Of a stretch of 64,000 bases of DNA, positions 17,901-21,974 are shown one piece after another; positions within the stretch are counted from its first letter, which is position 1, and each line of letters opens with the position of its first letter. The notes under the pieces are model-generated. The model was not told the DNA's origin. It saw nothing but the letters and a program-made list of their open reading frames with translations, and made no database searches. Origin of the DNA: Burkholderiales bacterium (lineage in GTDB: Bacteria > Patescibacteriota > Minisyncoccia > Phycocordibacterales > UBA9973); assembly GCA_023701005.1 (NCBI GenBank), contig JAMPXW010000001.1:35769-99768 (forward strand), in the 5' to 3' direction. The translations under genes were made by a program, and so were the position numbers.

Positions 17901-20900
17901 TTAATTTTCTTTGTAACCAGGTTTTTTCTCTCCTACTGTCACTGTGACTGTCGAATCAGCTGTTATAAAAGAAGTAGTATTCTCACAACTAATTCTGTAA
18001 GTAGTAGTTTGTGTCGGACTAACTATCACCCCAACACTATTACTAACAGCACCTCCTGTATTAAAACCTGCGGTCAAACTTGTACACGTGTCAGCATGCA
18101 TAGTAGACCATTTAATTGTTGAAGATTCACCCTTGACTATAGTTATGGGATCAGCTGTAAATGAAATTATAGTAGGTGCTGGAGGTGGAAATGTTGTACA
18201 AGTTGGAGGATTAGTAGCACTATTTATACATAACCCAGAACTATTTACAGTACAAGCTGAATAATTCACTGCTCCGTTACTACAAGTAGGAGTGTCACTT
18301 ACTATCACTGTAAATGCACTTGTATCTGTTTCTCCAGTTGAATCTTTTAAAGCTTGTATAGAATATCCATATGTATTAGCAATATCTGGAGCTGCTATCA
18401 GCATACTTCCCCTACATGGTGAATATGAATTAAGAGGTGTGCCAACATTGTCTAACAATCTACAACTAGCAGGACCATCTGTTACGGTATAGGTTGCAGA
18501 AATTGTCCTGTCTGGCAATGTTACTGAATATGTTGTTGGATTTACAGAAATATCAAAAGTAGGAATAGGTGCATCATTTACCGTCACCGTAAACATATCA
18601 CTTGTACTTGTTTCTCCCGTCGAAGCTTTAGTTGCTCTCATATAGTATCCATAAACTCCAGCTGCCGCCGGTGTATCATAAGTTATTGGACTAGTACAAG
18701 AAATATCTGTTTTAAGAGTAGCTTGATTATTATCAAGCAAGTAACAATCAGTATTAGTTCCCGTACCATTAGTCAAAGTATACGAAGCACTAAATGCTGT
18801 CGTTGGAAGTGTAATAGTAGAATTTGCTGGAGTCGAAATACTTAAAGGATTTGTAAATACATCACATGTTGGATAATTTGTAGCTCCGTTTGCACAAGTG
18901 TTGGCACTGAATGTCGCTGTCACTGTACAATTTGCAGTGATAGCTCCTGTAGTATAAGTATTTCCACTAAGTGTTCCGCTACAACCAGAAACTGTGTTTA
19001 TAGAATAATCAGTATTTGGAGTGACGGTAAATGTAGTGGTTAATCCATAAGCAACAGTTCTTGAAGCTGGAGTAATAGCTCCGCCCGTTCCCGCTGTTCC
19101 CGTGACTGTATAAGATTTACATGCTCCCGCAGTTGGATTCCACGCAGTGCCCGAAGCACAAGCAGCGACGGTAGCAGCTGCTCCAGAAGCAGAAGCCAAC
19201 AATTGTCCATTATTATAAAGATAAAAATCTCTTGAAGGATAGGGAATAGTTACTGAGCCACTTCCTGAATTCCCTGTATAAACTGTAGTATTAGCACTAG
19301 GATATGAAGAAGTCACAGCAGATGTTCCTTGAGGATTTGTAGTACTCCAAACAGCAGTCGAAGTACAAGACGAAGCATTGGCAAGAATTGTACAATCTGG
19401 AACAGAAAGAGTTCCTGACATTGTTTTGACTTCAGTACAACTTGCATTAGCTCCTCCATTTAAACCACTACAAATCCATCCGTAATTTGTATTTAAATTA
19501 CTGTAACTTACTGTATTGGTGCCTCCCGTACTTGTTCCCGCAAGATTTGTTCCTGCTGTACAACCATAATGGGCTACTGCACACACACCATTTACTGGCG
19601 CAGAACCTACAGTAACTGTTACAGAACGAGTTACACTTCCTCCCAGCCCAGTACATTCAAGAGTATAAGTTTTTGATGATGTTAAAGCTCCTGTAGAAAC
19701 ATTAGTCCCTGAAGTAGCTTTCGTTCCTGTCCATGCATCACTAGCAGTACATGTTGTAGCATCTGTTGTAGACCAAGTTAAATAAGACGTCCCATTGTAT
19801 ACAATAGAAGGTGGGTTTGCTGAGAAATTAAGAGTCGGAGCTGGTGACAAAGTTGTAAAATATCCTTCTGTTGAATATCCATATCCTGTAGTATTTCTGG
19901 CATATCCTTTAAATCTGTAGTCAGTACCTGAGCTCAAACCAGTGACATTGACAAAAAATGCTCCTGTCGAAGTACCTCCTTCGACTGCACAATTTCCAGC
20001 AGTATAGACACCGCTACTCAATCTCCAACATATTCCACGTTCTGAAATAGAAGCAGGAACACCCAAAGATGAAACATTTGCTCCTAAAGTTACAGAAGAT
20101 AAACCAACGGAAGAATCAGTGGGATAAATAACTGTAGGCACAGCATTAGTAGTACATGCGCTTCCCGTCCATGTCGTTCCTGTAGCACAAACAGCGGATA
20201 TAGTTAAAGGACCACTCAACAAAACAGCATTATTGTAGAGATAAAAACTTCTAGATGGATAATGAATAGTAGCTATCACATCTCCAGAATTTCCAGAGCC
20301 AACCAAAGTACTGACCGTGGTGCCTGAATTATTGGTAGGACTATAAACTGCAGAAGTGGCTTGAGGATTGACTGTATTCCACATAATTGAATTTAAACTA
20401 CAAGTACTATTACCAGCAGAAATAGTACAAGAGGTGCTTCCATCTTCTGACCACAAAGTTCCACTCATTGGAGGTGTCGTAACAGTGACTGTCGTAAAAT
20501 CTCCACAGTTATTATTTTCATTTGATTCAGTAATAGATCCAACAAATGATGCATTATTATCAGCACAAGCTCTTATATAATAAGTCCCAGAACTCGAAAA
20601 AGTGAACGATGCGCCTACTGTCTTACTTTCATTCACAGCAAAAGCTGTAGAAGTCGTAGCGACTTTACCTGTCCCATTTACAAGTTGAAAATAATGATTG
20701 ATAGATGTAGCACTAGTAGCACTAGTTCCTATATTGCTTATGTCTGCAGAAAATGTCGTCGCTACATTCGTACTAGCTGATGAAGGAGTCACACTTCCGG
20801 CTGTCAGATCTGGAAAAGTAGGAGCTGCTTCTACAATAACATTAACTGTATCTTCTGCAGTAATCGAAGAATTGTCTGCTTTCTTGCCAACAGCTGTAAC

Positions 20901-21974
20901 CTTAACACTATAATTCCCCGAAGTAGCAGTGCCAGCTCCAATAGAAAGTTGTGTATTAGAAGGCATTTCGGCTTGAAGCTTGTCATTACTACGATAAATA
21001 ATATAAGTTATTCCTGTAACATTTTCAGATGTCGTCACTACATTTGTAGTCACATTACTTCCCCCAGATTGTACAGAAATAGAAGAAGCAACTATATCAA
21101 CACTTAAAGTTGAAACAGGGGCTTTTACACTTGCCGTTTCGCATTGAGCAGTAGCACAGTTTGCACAACCTGAATCAGCACCTACTACTATATATTTGTG
21201 ATAATTCGTATCTAACATATTCACATATGGAAATGTAAAAGAACCCATCCCTACAGGGCCCGCAATAGTGTTAAGCAAATTTGAAGCACTAATACTATCT
21301 TTATAAAGAGTATAAGTATCAGCTCCATTATGATTATCCCATCCACTCACTACAGCTCTATAATATGGATAACTGGCATTAAGAGATGGAACAGCCGTAC
21401 ATTGAGTAGGAGCTGGGAATGTTGGGGCAGAATAATTTACCGTCACAGAAGAAGCAGCCGATTGTCCATTCGTGCCGAGACATGTGAGAGTATAAATTTC
21501 ATTTGCATATTTTGAAGTGTAAACAGTAGCACTTCCTGAAGTTGTTTTTGTTCCTGTCCATGAGCCACTAGCCGTACAAGAAAGTGCATCCGTTGTGGAC
21601 CAAGTTAGGACAATAGCTTCTCCAGTAGAAGAAAAAGTAGACTTATTTGCCGCAATCGTAACAGTCGGATTTGTATTTTTTTTACAAGTATAAAAAGTAG
21701 AAGTAAAAGCAGTTCCCTCATATTTCGTAAAAGTTCCCTGACTATTTACATTTGAATCATTTAAACAAGCGCCACTCCAATTACAATAATACCCATAATC
21801 AATACCATAATCATCAGAGTATGCTTGAACATAATCCCACTTATATCCTGGTGAGATTACTCTGGGGTCAACATCTTTATCGAAAGTAGCACAATCTACG
21901 ACAAAGGCAAAAGATGTATGTGCAGAAATTATGAACCCAAATACAAAAGCAAGTAGTATTAAAAATTTTTTCAT
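17901..21974 (-). CDS. 1357-aa secreted Ser/Thr/Gly-rich repeat protein (Ig-like/adhesin-like cell-surface protein)
   Basis: Signal peptide MKKFLILLAFVFGFIISAHTSFA. Internal duplicated modules include LTWSTTDA.SCTASG.WTGTK.TSG (three copies) and YPSR(S/D)FYLYNN (two copies). Confidence 0.8.
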   Translation of the reverse strand: MKKFLILLAFVFGFIISAHTSFAFVVDCATFDKDVDPRVISPGYKWDYVQAYSDDYGIDYGYYCNWSGACLNDSNVNSQGTFTKYEGTAFTSTFYTCKKNTNPTVTIAANKSTFSSTGEAIVLTWSTTDALSCTASGSWTGTKTTSGSATVYTSKYANEIYTLTCLGTNGQSAASSVTVNYSAPTFPAPTQCTAVPSLNASYPYYRAVVSGWDNHNGADTYTLYKDSISASNLLNTIAGPVGMGSFTFPYVNMLDTNYHKYIVVGADSGCANCATAQCETASVKAPVSTLSVDIVASSISVQSGGSNVTTNVVTTSENVTGITYIIYRSNDKLQAEMPSNTQLSIGAGTATSGNYSVKVTAVGKKADNSSITAEDTVNVIVEAAPTFPDLTAGSVTPSSASTNVATTFSADISNIGTSATSATSINHYFQLVNGTGKVATTSTAFAVNESKTVGASFTFSSSGTYYIRACADNNASFVGSITESNENNNCGDFTTVTVTTPPMSGTLWSEDGSTSCTISAGNSTCSLNSIMWNTVNPQATSAVYSPTNNSGTTVSTLVGSGNSGDVIATIHYPSRSFYLYNNAVLLSGPLTISAVCATGTTWTGSACTTNAVPTVIYPTDSSVGLSSVTLGANVSSLGVPASISERGICWRLSSGVYTAGNCAVEGGTSTGAFFVNVTGLSSGTDYRFKGYARNTTGYGYSTEGYFTTLSPAPTLNFSANPPSIVYNGTSYLTWSTTDATTCTASDAWTGTKATSGTNVSTGALTSSKTYTLECTGLGGSVTRSVTVTVGSAPVNGVCAVAHYGCTAGTNLAGTSTGGTNTVSYSNLNTNYGWICSGLNGGANASCTEVKTMSGTLSVPDCTILANASSCTSTAVWSTTNPQGTSAVTSSYPSANTTVYTGNSGSGSVTIPYPSRDFYLYNNGQLLASASGAAATVAACASGTAWNPTAGACKSYTVTGTAGTGGAITPASRTVAYGLTTTFTVTPNTDYSINTVSGCSGTLSGNTYTTGAITANCTVTATFSANTCANGATNYPTCDVFTNPLSISTPANSTITLPTTAFSASYTLTNGTGTNTDCYLLDNNQATLKTDISCTSPITYDTPAAAGVYGYYMRATKASTGETSTSDMFTVTVNDAPIPTFDISVNPTTYSVTLPDRTISATYTVTDGPASCRLLDNVGTPLNSYSPCRGSMLIAAPDIANTYGYSIQALKDSTGETDTSAFTVIVSDTPTCSNGAVNYSACTVNSSGLCINSATNPPTCTTFPPPAPTIISFTADPITIVKGESSTIKWSTMHADTCTSLTAGFNTGGAVSNSVGVIVSPTQTTTYRISCENTTSFITADSTVTVTVGEKKPGYKEN

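What the first reader, a model, noticed from the sequence alone, without database searches (positions are those of the whole stretch)
17901..21974. 1357-aa repeat-built surface protein directly upstream of the pilus ATPase, separated only by a hairpin
It has a signal peptide, extreme Ser/Thr/Gly/Asn content and no obvious anchor motif at the C-terminus (ends ...VGEKKPGYKEN). There is clear internal duplication. The module LTWSTTDA(L/T)(S/T)CTASG.WTGTK.TSG...Y.L.C.G appears at about aa 120, 730 and 1310. YPSR(S/D)FYLYNN blocks preceded by NPQ(A/G)TSAV appear twice. TFDISVNPTTYSVTLPDRTISATYTVTDG and TNPLSISTPANSTITLPTTAFSASYTLTNG appear twice. The gene ends 65 bp before pilB with a symmetric hairpin (AATCCTCC-GAAAA-GGAGGATT), so partial read-through into the pilus operon is plausible. 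It is a candidate adhesin or episymbiont attachment protein functionally coupled to type IV pili.
Basis: partly seen in the sequence, partly recalled or inferred. Interest (0 to 1): 0.5.

Follow-up and report, generated by a model that had tools for sequence, protein, structure and literature searches.

The report
Hypervariable Ig-repeat surface protein beside pilB
This is a real 1357-residue secreted protein built from about 14 immunoglobulin-like modules in an ultra-small Paceibacterota (CPR) bacterium; it is one version of a fast-shuffling surface-protein family that sits in a fixed slot next to the pilus genes, is transcribed separately from them, and carries a short conserved C-terminal tail that no library or paper I searched describes.

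Summary
ORF 17901..21974 (-) encodes a 1357-aa, Ser/Thr-rich protein with 42 Cys, an N-terminal signal peptide and no other hydrophobic segment. It has three internally duplicated module types and ends 65 nt before pilB, with a hairpin in between.

- **Fold:** the modules are Ig-like beta-sandwiches (CARDB and InlB B-repeat by Pfam; two AlphaFold models).
- **Synteny:** in about 20 of 27 close relatives a large, same-strand, signal-peptide protein fills the slot between nusA and pilB. Its length (312-2296 aa) and module order differ every time.
- **Anchor motif:** "no C-terminal motif" is wrong. The tail KKPGYKEN fits a conserved P-x-[FY]-x-E-[NF]-COOH tail (24 of 1348 neighbourhood ORFs against 1.1 expected; 58 of 142 module homologues).
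- **Transcription:** the hairpin is a conserved, covarying intrinsic terminator fused to an extended -10 box (TGTTATAAT) 6 nt before the pilB ATG. This leaderless promoter type recurs across the window. Transcriptional coupling is therefore unlikely.
- **Pilus link:** it rests only on position and lineage. In other Patescibacteria, tail-bearing proteins sit next to rpmE instead.

Most likely it is a variable host- or partner-facing surface fibre whose conserved tail serves retention or sorting.

The parts
17901..21974 (-). Gene for the 1357-aa modular surface protein ('BIG'); mature protein about 137 kDa, pI 4.6
22013..22041 (-). Candidate sigma-70 promoter of BIG (TACACA-17-TATAAT, 10 of 12 matches), giving a 5' UTR of about 32 nt with no Shine-Dalgarno motif
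   Evidence: consensus match only
21906..21974 (-). Signal peptide, aa 1-23 (MKK + hydrophobic core + SFA|F); Sec/SPase I type, with no lipobox and no prepilin G|F motif
   Evidence: read from the sequence, no signal-peptide predictor was available
21675..21905 (-). N-terminal orphan region with 4 Cys, aa 24-100; no homologue and no Pfam match
21426..21674 (-). Module A copy 1 (aa 101-183; LTWSTTDALSCTASGSWTG; one Cys pair); Ig/PKD-like
   Evidence: weak K319L-PKD match, E 0.22; fold of paralogue A3
20820..21425 (-). Two near-orphan beta modules (aa 184-385). Apart from this protein itself, only 5 relatives among 1.84 billion representative proteins, two of them collinear (P0143, P0144)
20484..20819 (-). 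CARDB domain (aa 386-497)
   Evidence: PF07705, E 1e-10, 42.2 bits against a cut-off of 22.7
20145..20483 (-). Module B copy 1 (aa 498-610; NPQATSAV...YPSRSFYLYNN; 4 Cys)
19857..20144 (-). Fn3-like module (aa 611-706; GICW...TDYRFKGYARNTTGYGYS)
   Evidence: (fn3, E 0.019, below cut-off)
19596..19856 (-). Module A copy 2 (aa 707-793); the module most widely shared in the databases
19425..19595 (-). Small module with 4 Cys (aa 794-850; NGVCA..YGC...W.C.G.NGG..SC)
   Evidence: no Pfam match
19119..19424 (-). Module B copy 2 (aa 851-952); AlphaFold pLDDT 95.7, an Ig-like beta-sandwich
18885..19118 (-). Divergent InlB B-repeat domain (aa 953-1030)
   Evidence: PF18998, E 7e-7, 29.5 bits against a cut-off of 23.6
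18279..18884 (-). Cys linker plus tandem modules C1 and C2 (aa 1031-1232); all-beta in the model (pLDDT 45-80); one homologue found (P0142)
17928..18278 (-). Linker with 4 Cys plus module A copy 3 (aa 1233-1349); a 7-strand beta-sandwich, pLDDT above 93
17904..17927 (-). C-terminal tail KKPGYKEN; an instance of the conserved [KR][KR]-P-x-[FY]-x-E-[NFDG]-COOH tail
17846..17882 (-). Intrinsic terminator: A-tract, stem TCCTCC/GGAGGA, 5-nt loop, T6
17842..17850 (-). Extended -10 box TGTTATAAT of pilB, ending 6 nt before the ATG at 17835; a leaderless transcript is predicted
11555..17835 (-). Downstream pil operon: pilB (16084-17835), pilC (14861-16078), three prepilin-like genes (14391-14858, 13853-14389, 13317-13847) and a 585-aa protein with a pilin-like N-terminus that lacks Glu5 (11555-13312). 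The next leaderless promoter (tpiA, ATG at 11532) marks the operon's end

Best explanation
BIG is a monocistronic gene for a Sec-exported, disulfide-stabilised 'beads-on-a-string' fibre of about 14 Ig-like beta-sandwich modules. The host is a Paceibacterota (Nomurabacteria-like) cell.

It is one version of a module-shuffled, hypervariable family that occupies a fixed chromosomal slot: nusA (divergent) | variable protein | pilB-pilC-pseudopilins. Between relatives only two elements stay constant, the N-terminal signal peptide and the last 6-8 residues, (K)KP-x-[FY]-x-E-[NF]-COOH.

Inferred mechanism:
1. The protein is exported by Sec and folds outside the cell with disulfides.
2. The conserved tail is recognised by a conserved partner that retains or sorts the protein at the cell envelope. 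That partner could be an envelope component or the pilus tip.
3. The freely shuffling modules face outward and provide variable binding to host, partner or surface.

The gene is transcriptionally insulated from the pilus operon. Its own promoter lies at about 22013-22041. A strong conserved intrinsic terminator ends it. pilB then restarts from its own extended -10 promoter as a leaderless mRNA.

**Shown:** ORF, signal peptide, module folds, hypervariability, slot conservation, tail conservation, terminator and promoter conservation.

**Inferred:** surface retention through the tail, adhesin function, actual transcript ends.

For: **Extracellular character.** One hydrophobic segment only, the signal peptide. 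42 Cys, mostly paired within modules.

**Mosaic family.** The 120 homologues share modules in shuffled order and copy number.

**Slot.** Among loci with PilB 72-85% identical, about 20 of 27 have a same-strand protein of 312-2296 aa with a signal peptide ending 21-123 nt before pilB. Its architecture differs every time. Two loci (L002, L016) have the slot empty. The same arrangement holds for P0003, P0007 and P0043.

**Tail.**
- P-x-[FYVIL]-x-E-x lies at the exact C-terminus in 24 of 1348 neighbourhood ORFs, against 1.1 expected and 0-1 at control offsets.
- All 24 are upstream of pilB and on the same strand.
- 58 strict plus 10 loose matches occur among 142 homologues, following different last domains.
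- Pro is encoded by 4 codons and Glu by 2, so the constraint acts at protein level.

**Terminator.** 16-pair stem with 5 G-C pairs and T6. Energy -23.9 kcal/mol, z = -7.9. Among 20 relatives there are 17 distinct stems, all fully paired, with C-G to T-A swaps at pairs 2-6.

**pilB promoter.** TGnTA[TC]A[AC]T lies 6-9 nt before the ATG in 25 of 29 relatives and in the window itself, and also where the slot is empty. The same arrangement occurs 15 times in the window against 4.1 +/- 1.7 expected, and 12 of the 15 are at ORF starts.

**Literature.** Ig-like and PKD proteins of unknown function, together with T4P genes, are highly expressed in Paceibacteria attached to hosts (PMC10936435). Adhesins and T4P are essential for epibiotic growth in Saccharibacteria (PMC10633639).
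Against: - There is no experimental localisation, no binding data and no transcript data.
- The partner that reads the tail is unknown. No conserved candidate gene was found next to tail-bearing genes, and no sortase-like gene was found among the window ORFs scanned.
- The tail has no membrane-spanning or known wall-binding element, so the protein could simply be released.
- The N-terminal third and modules C have almost no homologues, so their fold and role are unverified.
- Promoter and terminator calls are consensus-based.
- Signal-peptide cleavage was read by eye.
Confidence: 0.6

Rival explanations
1. Pilus-coupled adhesin or cargo. The protein is loaded through its conserved C-terminal tail onto the tip complex formed by the minor pseudopilins encoded just downstream. 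This would be analogous to PilY1/PilC on T4aP tips, or to substrates pushed by a T2SS pseudopilus. Extension of the pilus then presents it to the host, or drives it through the wall and S-layer.
For: - All 24 tail-bearing ORFs found within +/-10 kb of 80 pilB genes lie upstream of pilB on the same strand. 14 of them end 21-123 nt from pilB.
- The same arrangement holds for P0003, P0007 and P0043.
- The operon encodes PilB, PilC, three prepilin-like proteins and a 585-aa pilin-like protein without Glu5, which is the make-up of a tip or priming complex.
- T4P mediate host attachment in cultivated Patescibacteria (PMC10633639; PMC11623550, title and abstract only).
Against: - The genes are separate transcription units.
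- The slot is empty in L002 and L016 although pilB is intact.
- P0027 (tail KKPIYKEN) lies directly upstream of tpiA with no pil genes between them.
- Tail proteins of the '...PNFxEF' type sit upstream of rpmE-prfA-rpsB in other lineages, with no pil genes nearby.
- There is no PilY1-type or pilin-type domain in BIG.
- No interaction model could be run.
Confidence: 0.3
2. Surface-layer or coat protein. It would be an abundant, self-assembling envelope protein whose variability reflects phage or predator pressure rather than host binding. The tail would then anchor the lattice to the wall.
For: - It is a stand-alone gene with a near-consensus promoter and a strong terminator.
- It is acidic, Ser/Thr-rich and built of Ig-like modules, with many N-x-S/T sites (29).
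- It is usually one per slot, with strain-level hypervariability.
- From my own knowledge, not checked here: CPR cells show S-layers in cryo-ET (Luef et al. 2015).
Against: - The size range of 312-2296 aa and the free module shuffling fit poorly with a lattice-forming protein.
- Some genomes carry two in tandem (L001, L050, L085) or none in the slot (L002, L016).
- There is no SLH or other known S-layer anchoring domain.
- There are no expression data.
Confidence: 0.15
3. Co-transcription by terminator read-through. BIG and the pil operon form one regulated unit, with the hairpin acting as an attenuator that sets their ratio.
For: - The two genes are on the same strand with a 65-nt gap.
- Intrinsic terminators are rarely 100% efficient (general knowledge).
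- The purine-rich 3' arm (GGAGGA) is conserved in orientation in 18 of 20 relatives. This is unexplained.
Against: - The terminator is canonical and strong: an 8-bp core with 5 G-C pairs, extended by A/T pairing, followed by T6.
- pilB has its own conserved extended -10 box positioned for a leaderless start. It is also present when no gene lies upstream on the same strand (L002, L016), and it is typical of first genes of operons across the window.
- The GGAGG lies 17-22 nt from the ATG, too far to serve as a Shine-Dalgarno site.
Confidence: 0.15

Closest known systems
Ig-fold repeat adhesins of monoderm bacteria (MSCRAMM, Bap, SasG, Rib-type; LPXTG-anchored)
   Same: N-terminal Sec signal; a long array of 80-110-aa Ig-like beta-sandwich modules; Ser/Thr-rich; variable module number between strains; presumed fibre that projects a binding region.
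   Different: No LPXTG motif, hydrophobic segment or charged tail. It ends instead in an 8-residue hydrophilic tail, KKPGYKEN. The modules are heterogeneous (at least 9 types) rather than near-identical tandem repeats. Disulfides take the place of isopeptide or ester cross-links.
PilY1 / PilC tip-associated adhesins of type IVa pili
   Same: A large non-pilin protein with an ordinary signal peptide, encoded beside pilus-assembly and minor-pilin genes; a candidate for presenting an adhesive surface through the pilus.
   Different: No PilY1/PilC beta-propeller or vWA domain. It is a separate transcription unit. Adjacency is lineage-specific. No evidence of pilus association.
CARDB-domain 'cell adhesion related' proteins of archaea and CPR (Pfam PF07705)
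   Same: Contains one bona fide CARDB domain. Most database relatives are CARDB proteins of Patescibacteria.
   Different: CARDB is 1 of about 14 modules. The family label says nothing about the tail, the slot or the shuffling.
VARTIG module of Thermococcales (hypervariable Ig-domain protein; Makarova et al. 2021, PMC8416519)
   Same: A large multi-Ig protein that is hypervariable through recombination, sits at a conserved locus and has proposed recognition or conflict roles.
   Different: VARTIG is archaeal, and its variability is concentrated in the C-terminal Ig domain, with variable downstream partner genes. Here the C-terminus is the conserved part and the neighbours (nusA, pilB) are constant.
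GhpA grappling-hook protein of Aureispira (PDB 9flu, 9flp)
   Same: Structural match of the C1-C2-A3 model and of module B to its Ig-like chain segments. Both are extended Ig chains used by a bacterium to contact other cells.
   Different: The similarity is at the level of fold only (about 12-14% identity). The 9flu and 9flp entries come from a different bacterium, Aureispira sp. That GhpA is far larger than BIG and is exported by a type 9 secretion system is from my own knowledge and was not checked here.
C-terminal sorting signals (LPXTG/sortase, PEP-CTERM/exosortase, GlyGly-CTERM, MYXO-CTERM, T9SS CTD)
   Same: A short conserved C-terminal element on many otherwise unrelated secreted proteins of one lineage, appended after different last domains.
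   Different: All of the short tripartite signals have a TM helix and a basic tail after the motif, and the T9SS CTD is a domain of about 80 aa. This tail is 6-8 hydrophilic residues ending the protein. No NCBIfam or Pfam model matches it, and no cognate enzyme is known.

Membership tests
CARDB domain proteins (PF07705) | Match to the Pfam model above its gathering score | tested here: met
   aa 388-490, 42.2 bits against a cut-off of 22.7, E 1e-10
Divergent InlB B-repeat (PF18998, Flg_new_2) | Match to the Pfam model above its gathering score | tested here: met
   aa 953-1026 scanned as a segment, 29.5 bits against 23.6, E 7e-7. Not reported when the whole protein was scanned
Ig-like beta-sandwich repeat proteins (fold level) | Modules fold as 7-9-strand sandwiches similar to solved Ig, Fn3 or PKD domains | tested here: met
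   for modules A3 and B2 (high confidence) and C1/C2 (low confidence). The N-terminal 24-100 and 184-385 regions were not modelled
Sortase substrates (LPXTG cell-wall sorting signal) | [quoted passage not shown] | tested here: not met
   the only LP.T[GAS] match is internal (aa 1056), and there is no hydrophobic segment outside aa 4-26
Type IV pilins / modular pilins | Class III signal peptide (G|F/M-x-x-x-E) with an N-terminal hydrophobic helix | tested here: not met
   the N-terminus is a Sec-type signal and there is no N_methyl match. The downstream genes do carry such motifs
PilY1 / PilC pilus tip adhesins | C-terminal PilY1/PilC beta-propeller domain | tested here: not met
   no such Pfam match at E up to 1 (whole protein) or up to 10 (segments). 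The C-terminal domain is an Ig-like sandwich
PilY1 / PilC pilus tip adhesins | Physical association with minor pilins at the pilus tip | not testable with these tools
   Needs complex modelling or experiment
T9SS cargo | Por_Secre_tail C-terminal domain | tested here: not met
   absent from BIG. The neighbouring ORF 22184-23107 does have it
Rho-independent (intrinsic) terminators | G+C-rich stem, short loop and an immediately following U-tract, 3' of a gene | tested here: met
   stem 17846-17882, 5 G-C pairs, 5-nt loop, T6; -23.9 kcal/mol, z = -7.9
Rho-independent (intrinsic) terminators | Structure conserved through compensatory changes in relatives | tested here: met
   20 relatives, 17 distinct stems, every position paired, C-G to T-A swaps at pairs 2-6
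Rho-independent (intrinsic) terminators | Transcripts actually end there | not testable with these tools
   Needs Term-seq or RNA-seq
Patescibacteria proteins with the P-x-[FY]-x-E-[NF]-COOH tail (uncurated group defined here) | Signal peptide, plus Pro at -6, an aromatic or aliphatic residue at -4 and Glu at -2 from the C-terminus, with no TM segment | tested here: met
   KKPGYKEN. Group statistics
S-layer proteins | Known anchoring module (SLH, CWB2 or similar) or demonstrated lattice formation | tested here: not met
   no such domain. Lattice formation is not testable here

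The most novel reading that the evidence does not exclude
The 6-8-residue tail (K)KP-x-[FY]-x-E-[NF]-COOH is a so-far undescribed, Patescibacteria-wide C-terminal sorting or attachment signal. It has no TM helix and no known sortase-like enzyme. It would tether hypervariable Ig-fibre proteins to a conserved receptor on the envelope or, in the Nomurabacteria-like clade, to the type IV pilus tip complex encoded next door. 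The nusA-pilB slot would then be a recombination cassette site where host-range-determining adhesins are swapped.
Probability: 0.3. Interest if true: 0.75.

Novelty: new variant of a known kind. Interest (0 to 1): 0.55.

Why it matters
Almost all Patescibacteria are uncultured. They are thought to live attached to other cells, and how they recognise and hold a host is largely unknown outside a few Saccharibacteria.

This locus offers three concrete handles:
- **A fixed chromosomal slot** (nusA | X | pilB) whose content changes completely between genomes with 72-85% identical PilB. That is the pattern expected for a host-range or conflict determinant, and it is easy to track in metagenomes.
- **A short conserved C-terminal tail** shared by dozens of otherwise unrelated giant secreted proteins. 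If it is a sorting signal, it defines the surface proteome of these organisms and points to an unknown recognition partner.
- **A genome-wide leaderless promoter signature** (TGnTAnnAT, then 5-8 nt, then ATG). It corrects start codons and operon boundaries in these MAGs.

None of this is proven function. The protein class itself, Ig-repeat surface proteins in CPR, is already known.

Tried and rejected
1. **Multi-module alignments for structure prediction.** MAFFT placed module fragments on the wrong modules. I abandoned whole-half models and predicted aa 1031-1357 (only A3-type rows retained) and module B2 alone. The N-terminal 385 aa were therefore never modelled.
2. **Dedicated homology searches.** Searches with aa 24-387 and with modules C found only module-A hits and one protein respectively. 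An exhaustive HMMER search with aa 184-385 found 5 relatives besides this protein itself.
3. **Look-ups that gave no context.** The P0060 look-up found no record. The P0144 contig is too short to show context, and its upstream gene is not nusA.
4. **Search for a conserved partner gene** next to the '...EF'-tail genes. Nothing is shared between L085, L086 and the window.
5. **Known models for the tail.** NCBIfam and Pfam scans of ten tails and of the last domain found nothing relevant.
6. **Literature.** Four searches found no description of the tail or of the nusA-pilB slot.
7. **Rfam** on 13000-27000: no family, so no riboswitch or known leader lies between the genes.
8. **Covariation by the alignment tool.** The formal count was dropped because variable loop lengths put the 5' arms out of register. 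It was replaced by a stem-anchored count in Python.
9. **Tool limits.** The afdb50 fold library was unavailable.
10. **Recent DNA-level repeats or phase-variation tracts.** Only old duplications were found (79% over 73 nt between A1 and A2).

Full report
**1. What is in the sequence**

The ORF at 17901..21974 (minus strand) is real and encodes 1357 aa. The identical protein is on record as a hypothetical protein of a MAG (P0001).

- Composition: 17.2% Thr, 13.0% Ser, 9.8% Ala, 8.5% Gly, 7.1% Asn, with 42 Cys.
- The only hydrophobic segment is aa 4-26. It reads as a Sec signal peptide (MKK, hydrophobic core, SFA|F).
- There is no C-terminal membrane segment. The only LPXTG-like string is internal.
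- The mature protein is about 137 kDa with pI 4.6.

Fragment-against-fragment BLASTP confirms three duplicated module types:

| Module | Copies (aa) | Similarity |
|---|---|---|
| A | 103-179, 713-787, 1270-1349 | 47% (E 9e-13) for copies 1 and 2; 34% (E 2e-5) for copies 2 and 3 |
| B | 503-586, 852-926 | 52% (E 3e-17) |
| C | 1049-1136, 1146-1229 | 42% (E 3e-14) |

At DNA level these are old duplications, at most 79% identical over 73 nt. The third A copy is divergent and lies at aa 1289. The two long 'C' strings are the two copies of one tandem pair.

The gene ends 65 nt before the pilB ATG. The hairpin is at 17854-17874.

**2. What the modules are**

- Pfam finds a CARDB domain at aa 388-490 (E 1e-10).
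- When segments are scanned singly, Pfam also finds a divergent InlB B-repeat at aa 953-1026 (E 7e-7, above cut-off).
- Sub-threshold hints are fn3 for aa 611-706 and a PKD-like model for module A.
- AlphaFold on aa 1031-1357 gave module A3 at pLDDT above 93 as a 7-strand sandwich. Modules C1 and C2 were all-beta at low to moderate confidence.
- Foldseek's best PDB matches for that model are tandem-Ig adhesion molecules (Sidekick, Dscam, contactin, titin) and the Ig chain of the Aureispira grappling-hook protein.

The 'Ig-like modules' part of the interpretation therefore passes its own refutation test.

The N-terminal 24-100 region, aa 184-385 and modules C are nearly orphan. Besides this protein itself, an exhaustive HMMER search of 1.84 billion representatives with aa 184-385 found five proteins. 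Two of them (P0143, P0144) are collinear with the N-terminal half.

**3. The organism and the family**

PilB homologues at 62-85% identity all come from Paceibacterota, Nomurabacteria or other Patescibacteria MAGs. The window is therefore a CPR genome, whatever the NCBI label of P0001 says.

The 120 proteins found with the full query are not orthologues. They share CARDB, A, B, fn3-like, InlB and small Cys modules in different orders and copy numbers.

**4. Synteny**

I took 80 pilB loci with 10-kb flanks and called ORFs.

- In the close group (PilB 72-85% identical), about 20 of 27 loci carry a same-strand ORF of 312-2296 aa ending 21-123 nt upstream of pilB. nusA lies further upstream and is divergent.
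- All full-length examples start with a signal peptide and are Ser/Thr- and Cys-rich.
- Their module order never matches the window's, even in L001 (PilB 85% identical), which has proteins of 715 and 786 aa instead.
- In L002 and L016 nusA abuts pilB directly, so the slot is empty.
- Look-ups of P0003, P0007 and P0043 show the same arrangement: nusA | big protein | pilB pilC pseudopilins.
- In the window itself the slot also holds a radical-SAM/SPASM gene, an unknown 258-aa ORF and a divergent ORF with a T9SS-type C-terminal domain.

Placement is thus conserved in this clade, while content is hypervariable.

**5. The C-terminus is not featureless**

The upstream proteins of the relatives end in KKPGYKEN, KKPTFIEG, KKPSFIEN, KKQPIFIEG, KIPGYKEN, KKKPIFIED and similar strings.

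- Among 1348 non-overlapping ORFs in the 80 loci, 24 end in P-x-[FYVIL]-x-E-x. The expected number is 1.1, and the same pattern at control offsets gives 0-1.
- All 24 are upstream of pilB and on its strand.
- Among the 142 module homologues, 58 match strictly and 10 loosely. There are two flavours, '(K)KKP-x-[FY]-x-E-[ND]' and 'V-N-V-I-P-N-F-x-E-F'.
- The tail follows different last domains: module A, the small Cys module, the InlB repeat or Cys linkers. It is therefore an autonomous short element.
- Pro(-6) is encoded by all four codons and Glu(-2) by both. Between the window and L001 the identical KKPGYKEN differs at four synonymous sites. The constraint is therefore on the peptide, not the DNA.
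- Only BIG carries the tail in the 64-kb window.
- No Pfam or NCBIfam model matches it, and four literature searches found no description.
- It lacks the TM helix that defines LPXTG, PEP-CTERM and related signals.

**6. The hairpin and pilB transcription**

The scan calls a terminator at 17846-17882: 16 pairs, 5 of them G-C, a 5-nt loop, then T6. The spacer folds at -23.9 kcal/mol, z = -7.9.

In 20 relatives an equivalent hairpin ends 17-22 nt (37 and 28 nt in two of the loci) before the pilB ATG. There are 17 different stems, every position stays paired, and C-G and T-A pairs interchange at pairs 2-6.

Immediately after the T-tract comes TGTTATAAT, ending 6 nt before the ATG.

- TGnTA[TC]A[AC]T at 6-9 nt is present in 25 of 29 relatives, including the two with an empty slot.
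- In the window, TGnTAnnAT-N5-8-ATG occurs 15 times against 4.1 +/- 1.7 in shuffles. 12 of the 15 coincide with ORF starts. One is an in-frame ATG at 11532 that is probably the true tpiA start and marks the end of the pil operon.
- Shine-Dalgarno motifs are rare in the window.

The simplest reading has three parts. BIG is monocistronic, with a promoter candidate at 22013-22041. It terminates at the hairpin. The operon from pilB to the 585-aa gene is then transcribed as a leaderless mRNA from its own promoter. Some read-through cannot be excluded without transcript data.

**7. Is it coupled to the pilus?**

*For:*
- The strict upstream, same-strand placement in this clade.
- The make-up of the operon: PilB with MshEN and T2SSE domains, PilC with T2SSF, three prepilin-like proteins, and a 585-aa pilin-like protein without Glu5. 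This is what a tip or priming complex looks like.

*Against:*
- Transcription is independent.
- The slot can be empty.
- P0027 (tail KKPIYKEN) lies directly upstream of tpiA-pgk-HIT-recJ-rnhA-comEC, with no pil genes in between.
- '...PNFxEF' proteins in other Patescibacteria sit in a different conserved slot, upstream of rpmE-prfA-rpsB-tsf, with no shared neighbouring gene.

I therefore treat pilus coupling as a live but minority hypothesis (about 0.3). The better-supported statement is a hypervariable, tail-tagged surface fibre. An S-layer or coat role is a further rival (about 0.15).

**8. Comparison with known systems**

It works like the Ig-repeat adhesins of monoderm bacteria, but it fails the LPXTG membership test. 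It resembles PilY1/PilC only in being a non-pilin encoded by pilus genes, and the defining propeller domain is absent. Its locus behaviour resembles the archaeal VARTIG module (PMC8416519), with the opposite polarity of variability.

Ig-like and PKD proteins and T4P are already implicated in host attachment of Paceibacteria and Saccharibacteria (PMC10936435, PMC10633639). The protein class is therefore known. Three things appear to be new:
- the conserved tail;
- the fixed nusA-pilB slot with shuffled content;
- the terminator fused to a leaderless promoter.

**9. Verdict**

I rate it a new variant of a known kind, with interest 0.55.

Noticed in passing
window 22184-23107 (+): A 307-aa ORF with a signal peptide and a T9SS-type C-terminal sorting domain (Por_Secre_tail, 35.7 bits against a cut-off of 27). 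It is divergent from BIG and lies inside the variable nusA-pilB slot. This is odd for a Patescibacteria genome, which as far as I know has no outer membrane or T9SS. L001 has a homologue (111 bits) in the same slot but in the opposite orientation relative to pilB.
   Followed up: partly
window 23245-25513 (-): A radical-SAM/SPASM maturase-like gene (24245-25513), followed by a 258-aa ORF with no Pfam match (23245-24021), also inside the variable slot. It may be a small peptide-modification cassette.
   Followed up: no
window-wide, e.g. 9298, 31737, 47075 (+); 51026, 36939, 17835, 9261, 4795, 3947 (-): The extended -10 box TGnTAnnAT lies 5-8 nt before the ATG 15 times, against 4.1 expected, and 12 of these are at ORF starts. 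Shine-Dalgarno motifs are rare. This suggests widespread leaderless transcription. It also suggests corrected starts for tpiA (ATG 11532 rather than GTG 11601), for the ORF ending at 46144 (ATG 46656) and for the ORF ending at 40685 (ATG 41041).
   Followed up: partly
window 11555-13312 (-): A 585-aa protein at the end of the pil operon has a pilin-like N-terminus (KQKG|AAMLISIVFF) without Glu at +5 and no Pfam match. This is reminiscent of GspK/PilX-type large minor pilins that cap a tip complex. Proteins of 570-600 aa lie upstream of pilB in more distant relatives.
   Followed up: no
P0001 record against loci L001-L080: The identical NCBI protein is labelled 'Burkholderiales bacterium'. Yet PilB, the gene order and all relatives place the window in Paceibacterota/Nomurabacteria. 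The taxonomic label of that MAG is probably wrong.
   Followed up: partly
L085 6001-9639 and 1-2639; L086 6001-10962: In another Patescibacteria lineage, giant CARDB proteins ending in ...V-I-P-N-F-x-E-F occupy a different conserved slot: a lytic transglycosylase (SLT_2) and several intervening genes, then the big protein, then rpmE-prfA-rpsB-tsf. L085 carries two such proteins. In L086 the preceding 481-aa gene overlaps the start of the big gene.
   Followed up: partly
window 17856-17861 and equivalent positions in 18 of 20 relatives: The terminator's 3' arm is always the purine-rich one (GGAGGA, GGGAGA, GGGGGA and so on) and the 5' arm the pyrimidine-rich one. A Shine-Dalgarno-like GGAGG is therefore always present 17-22 nt before the pilB ATG. 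That is too far for a normal SD site, and the strand bias is unexplained.
   Followed up: no
window 31737-32405 (+): An IS200-like Y1 transposase ORF (PF01797, E 5e-8), preceded by the same leaderless promoter signature (TGTTATGAT, 6 nt, ATG).
   Followed up: no
L082 1-4602: P0027 (tail KKPIYKEN) lies directly upstream of tpiA-pgk-HIT-recJ-rnhA-comEC. This is the gene string that follows the pil operon in the window, so the pil operon is missing or moved in that genome. The contig starts inside the gene.
   Followed up: no
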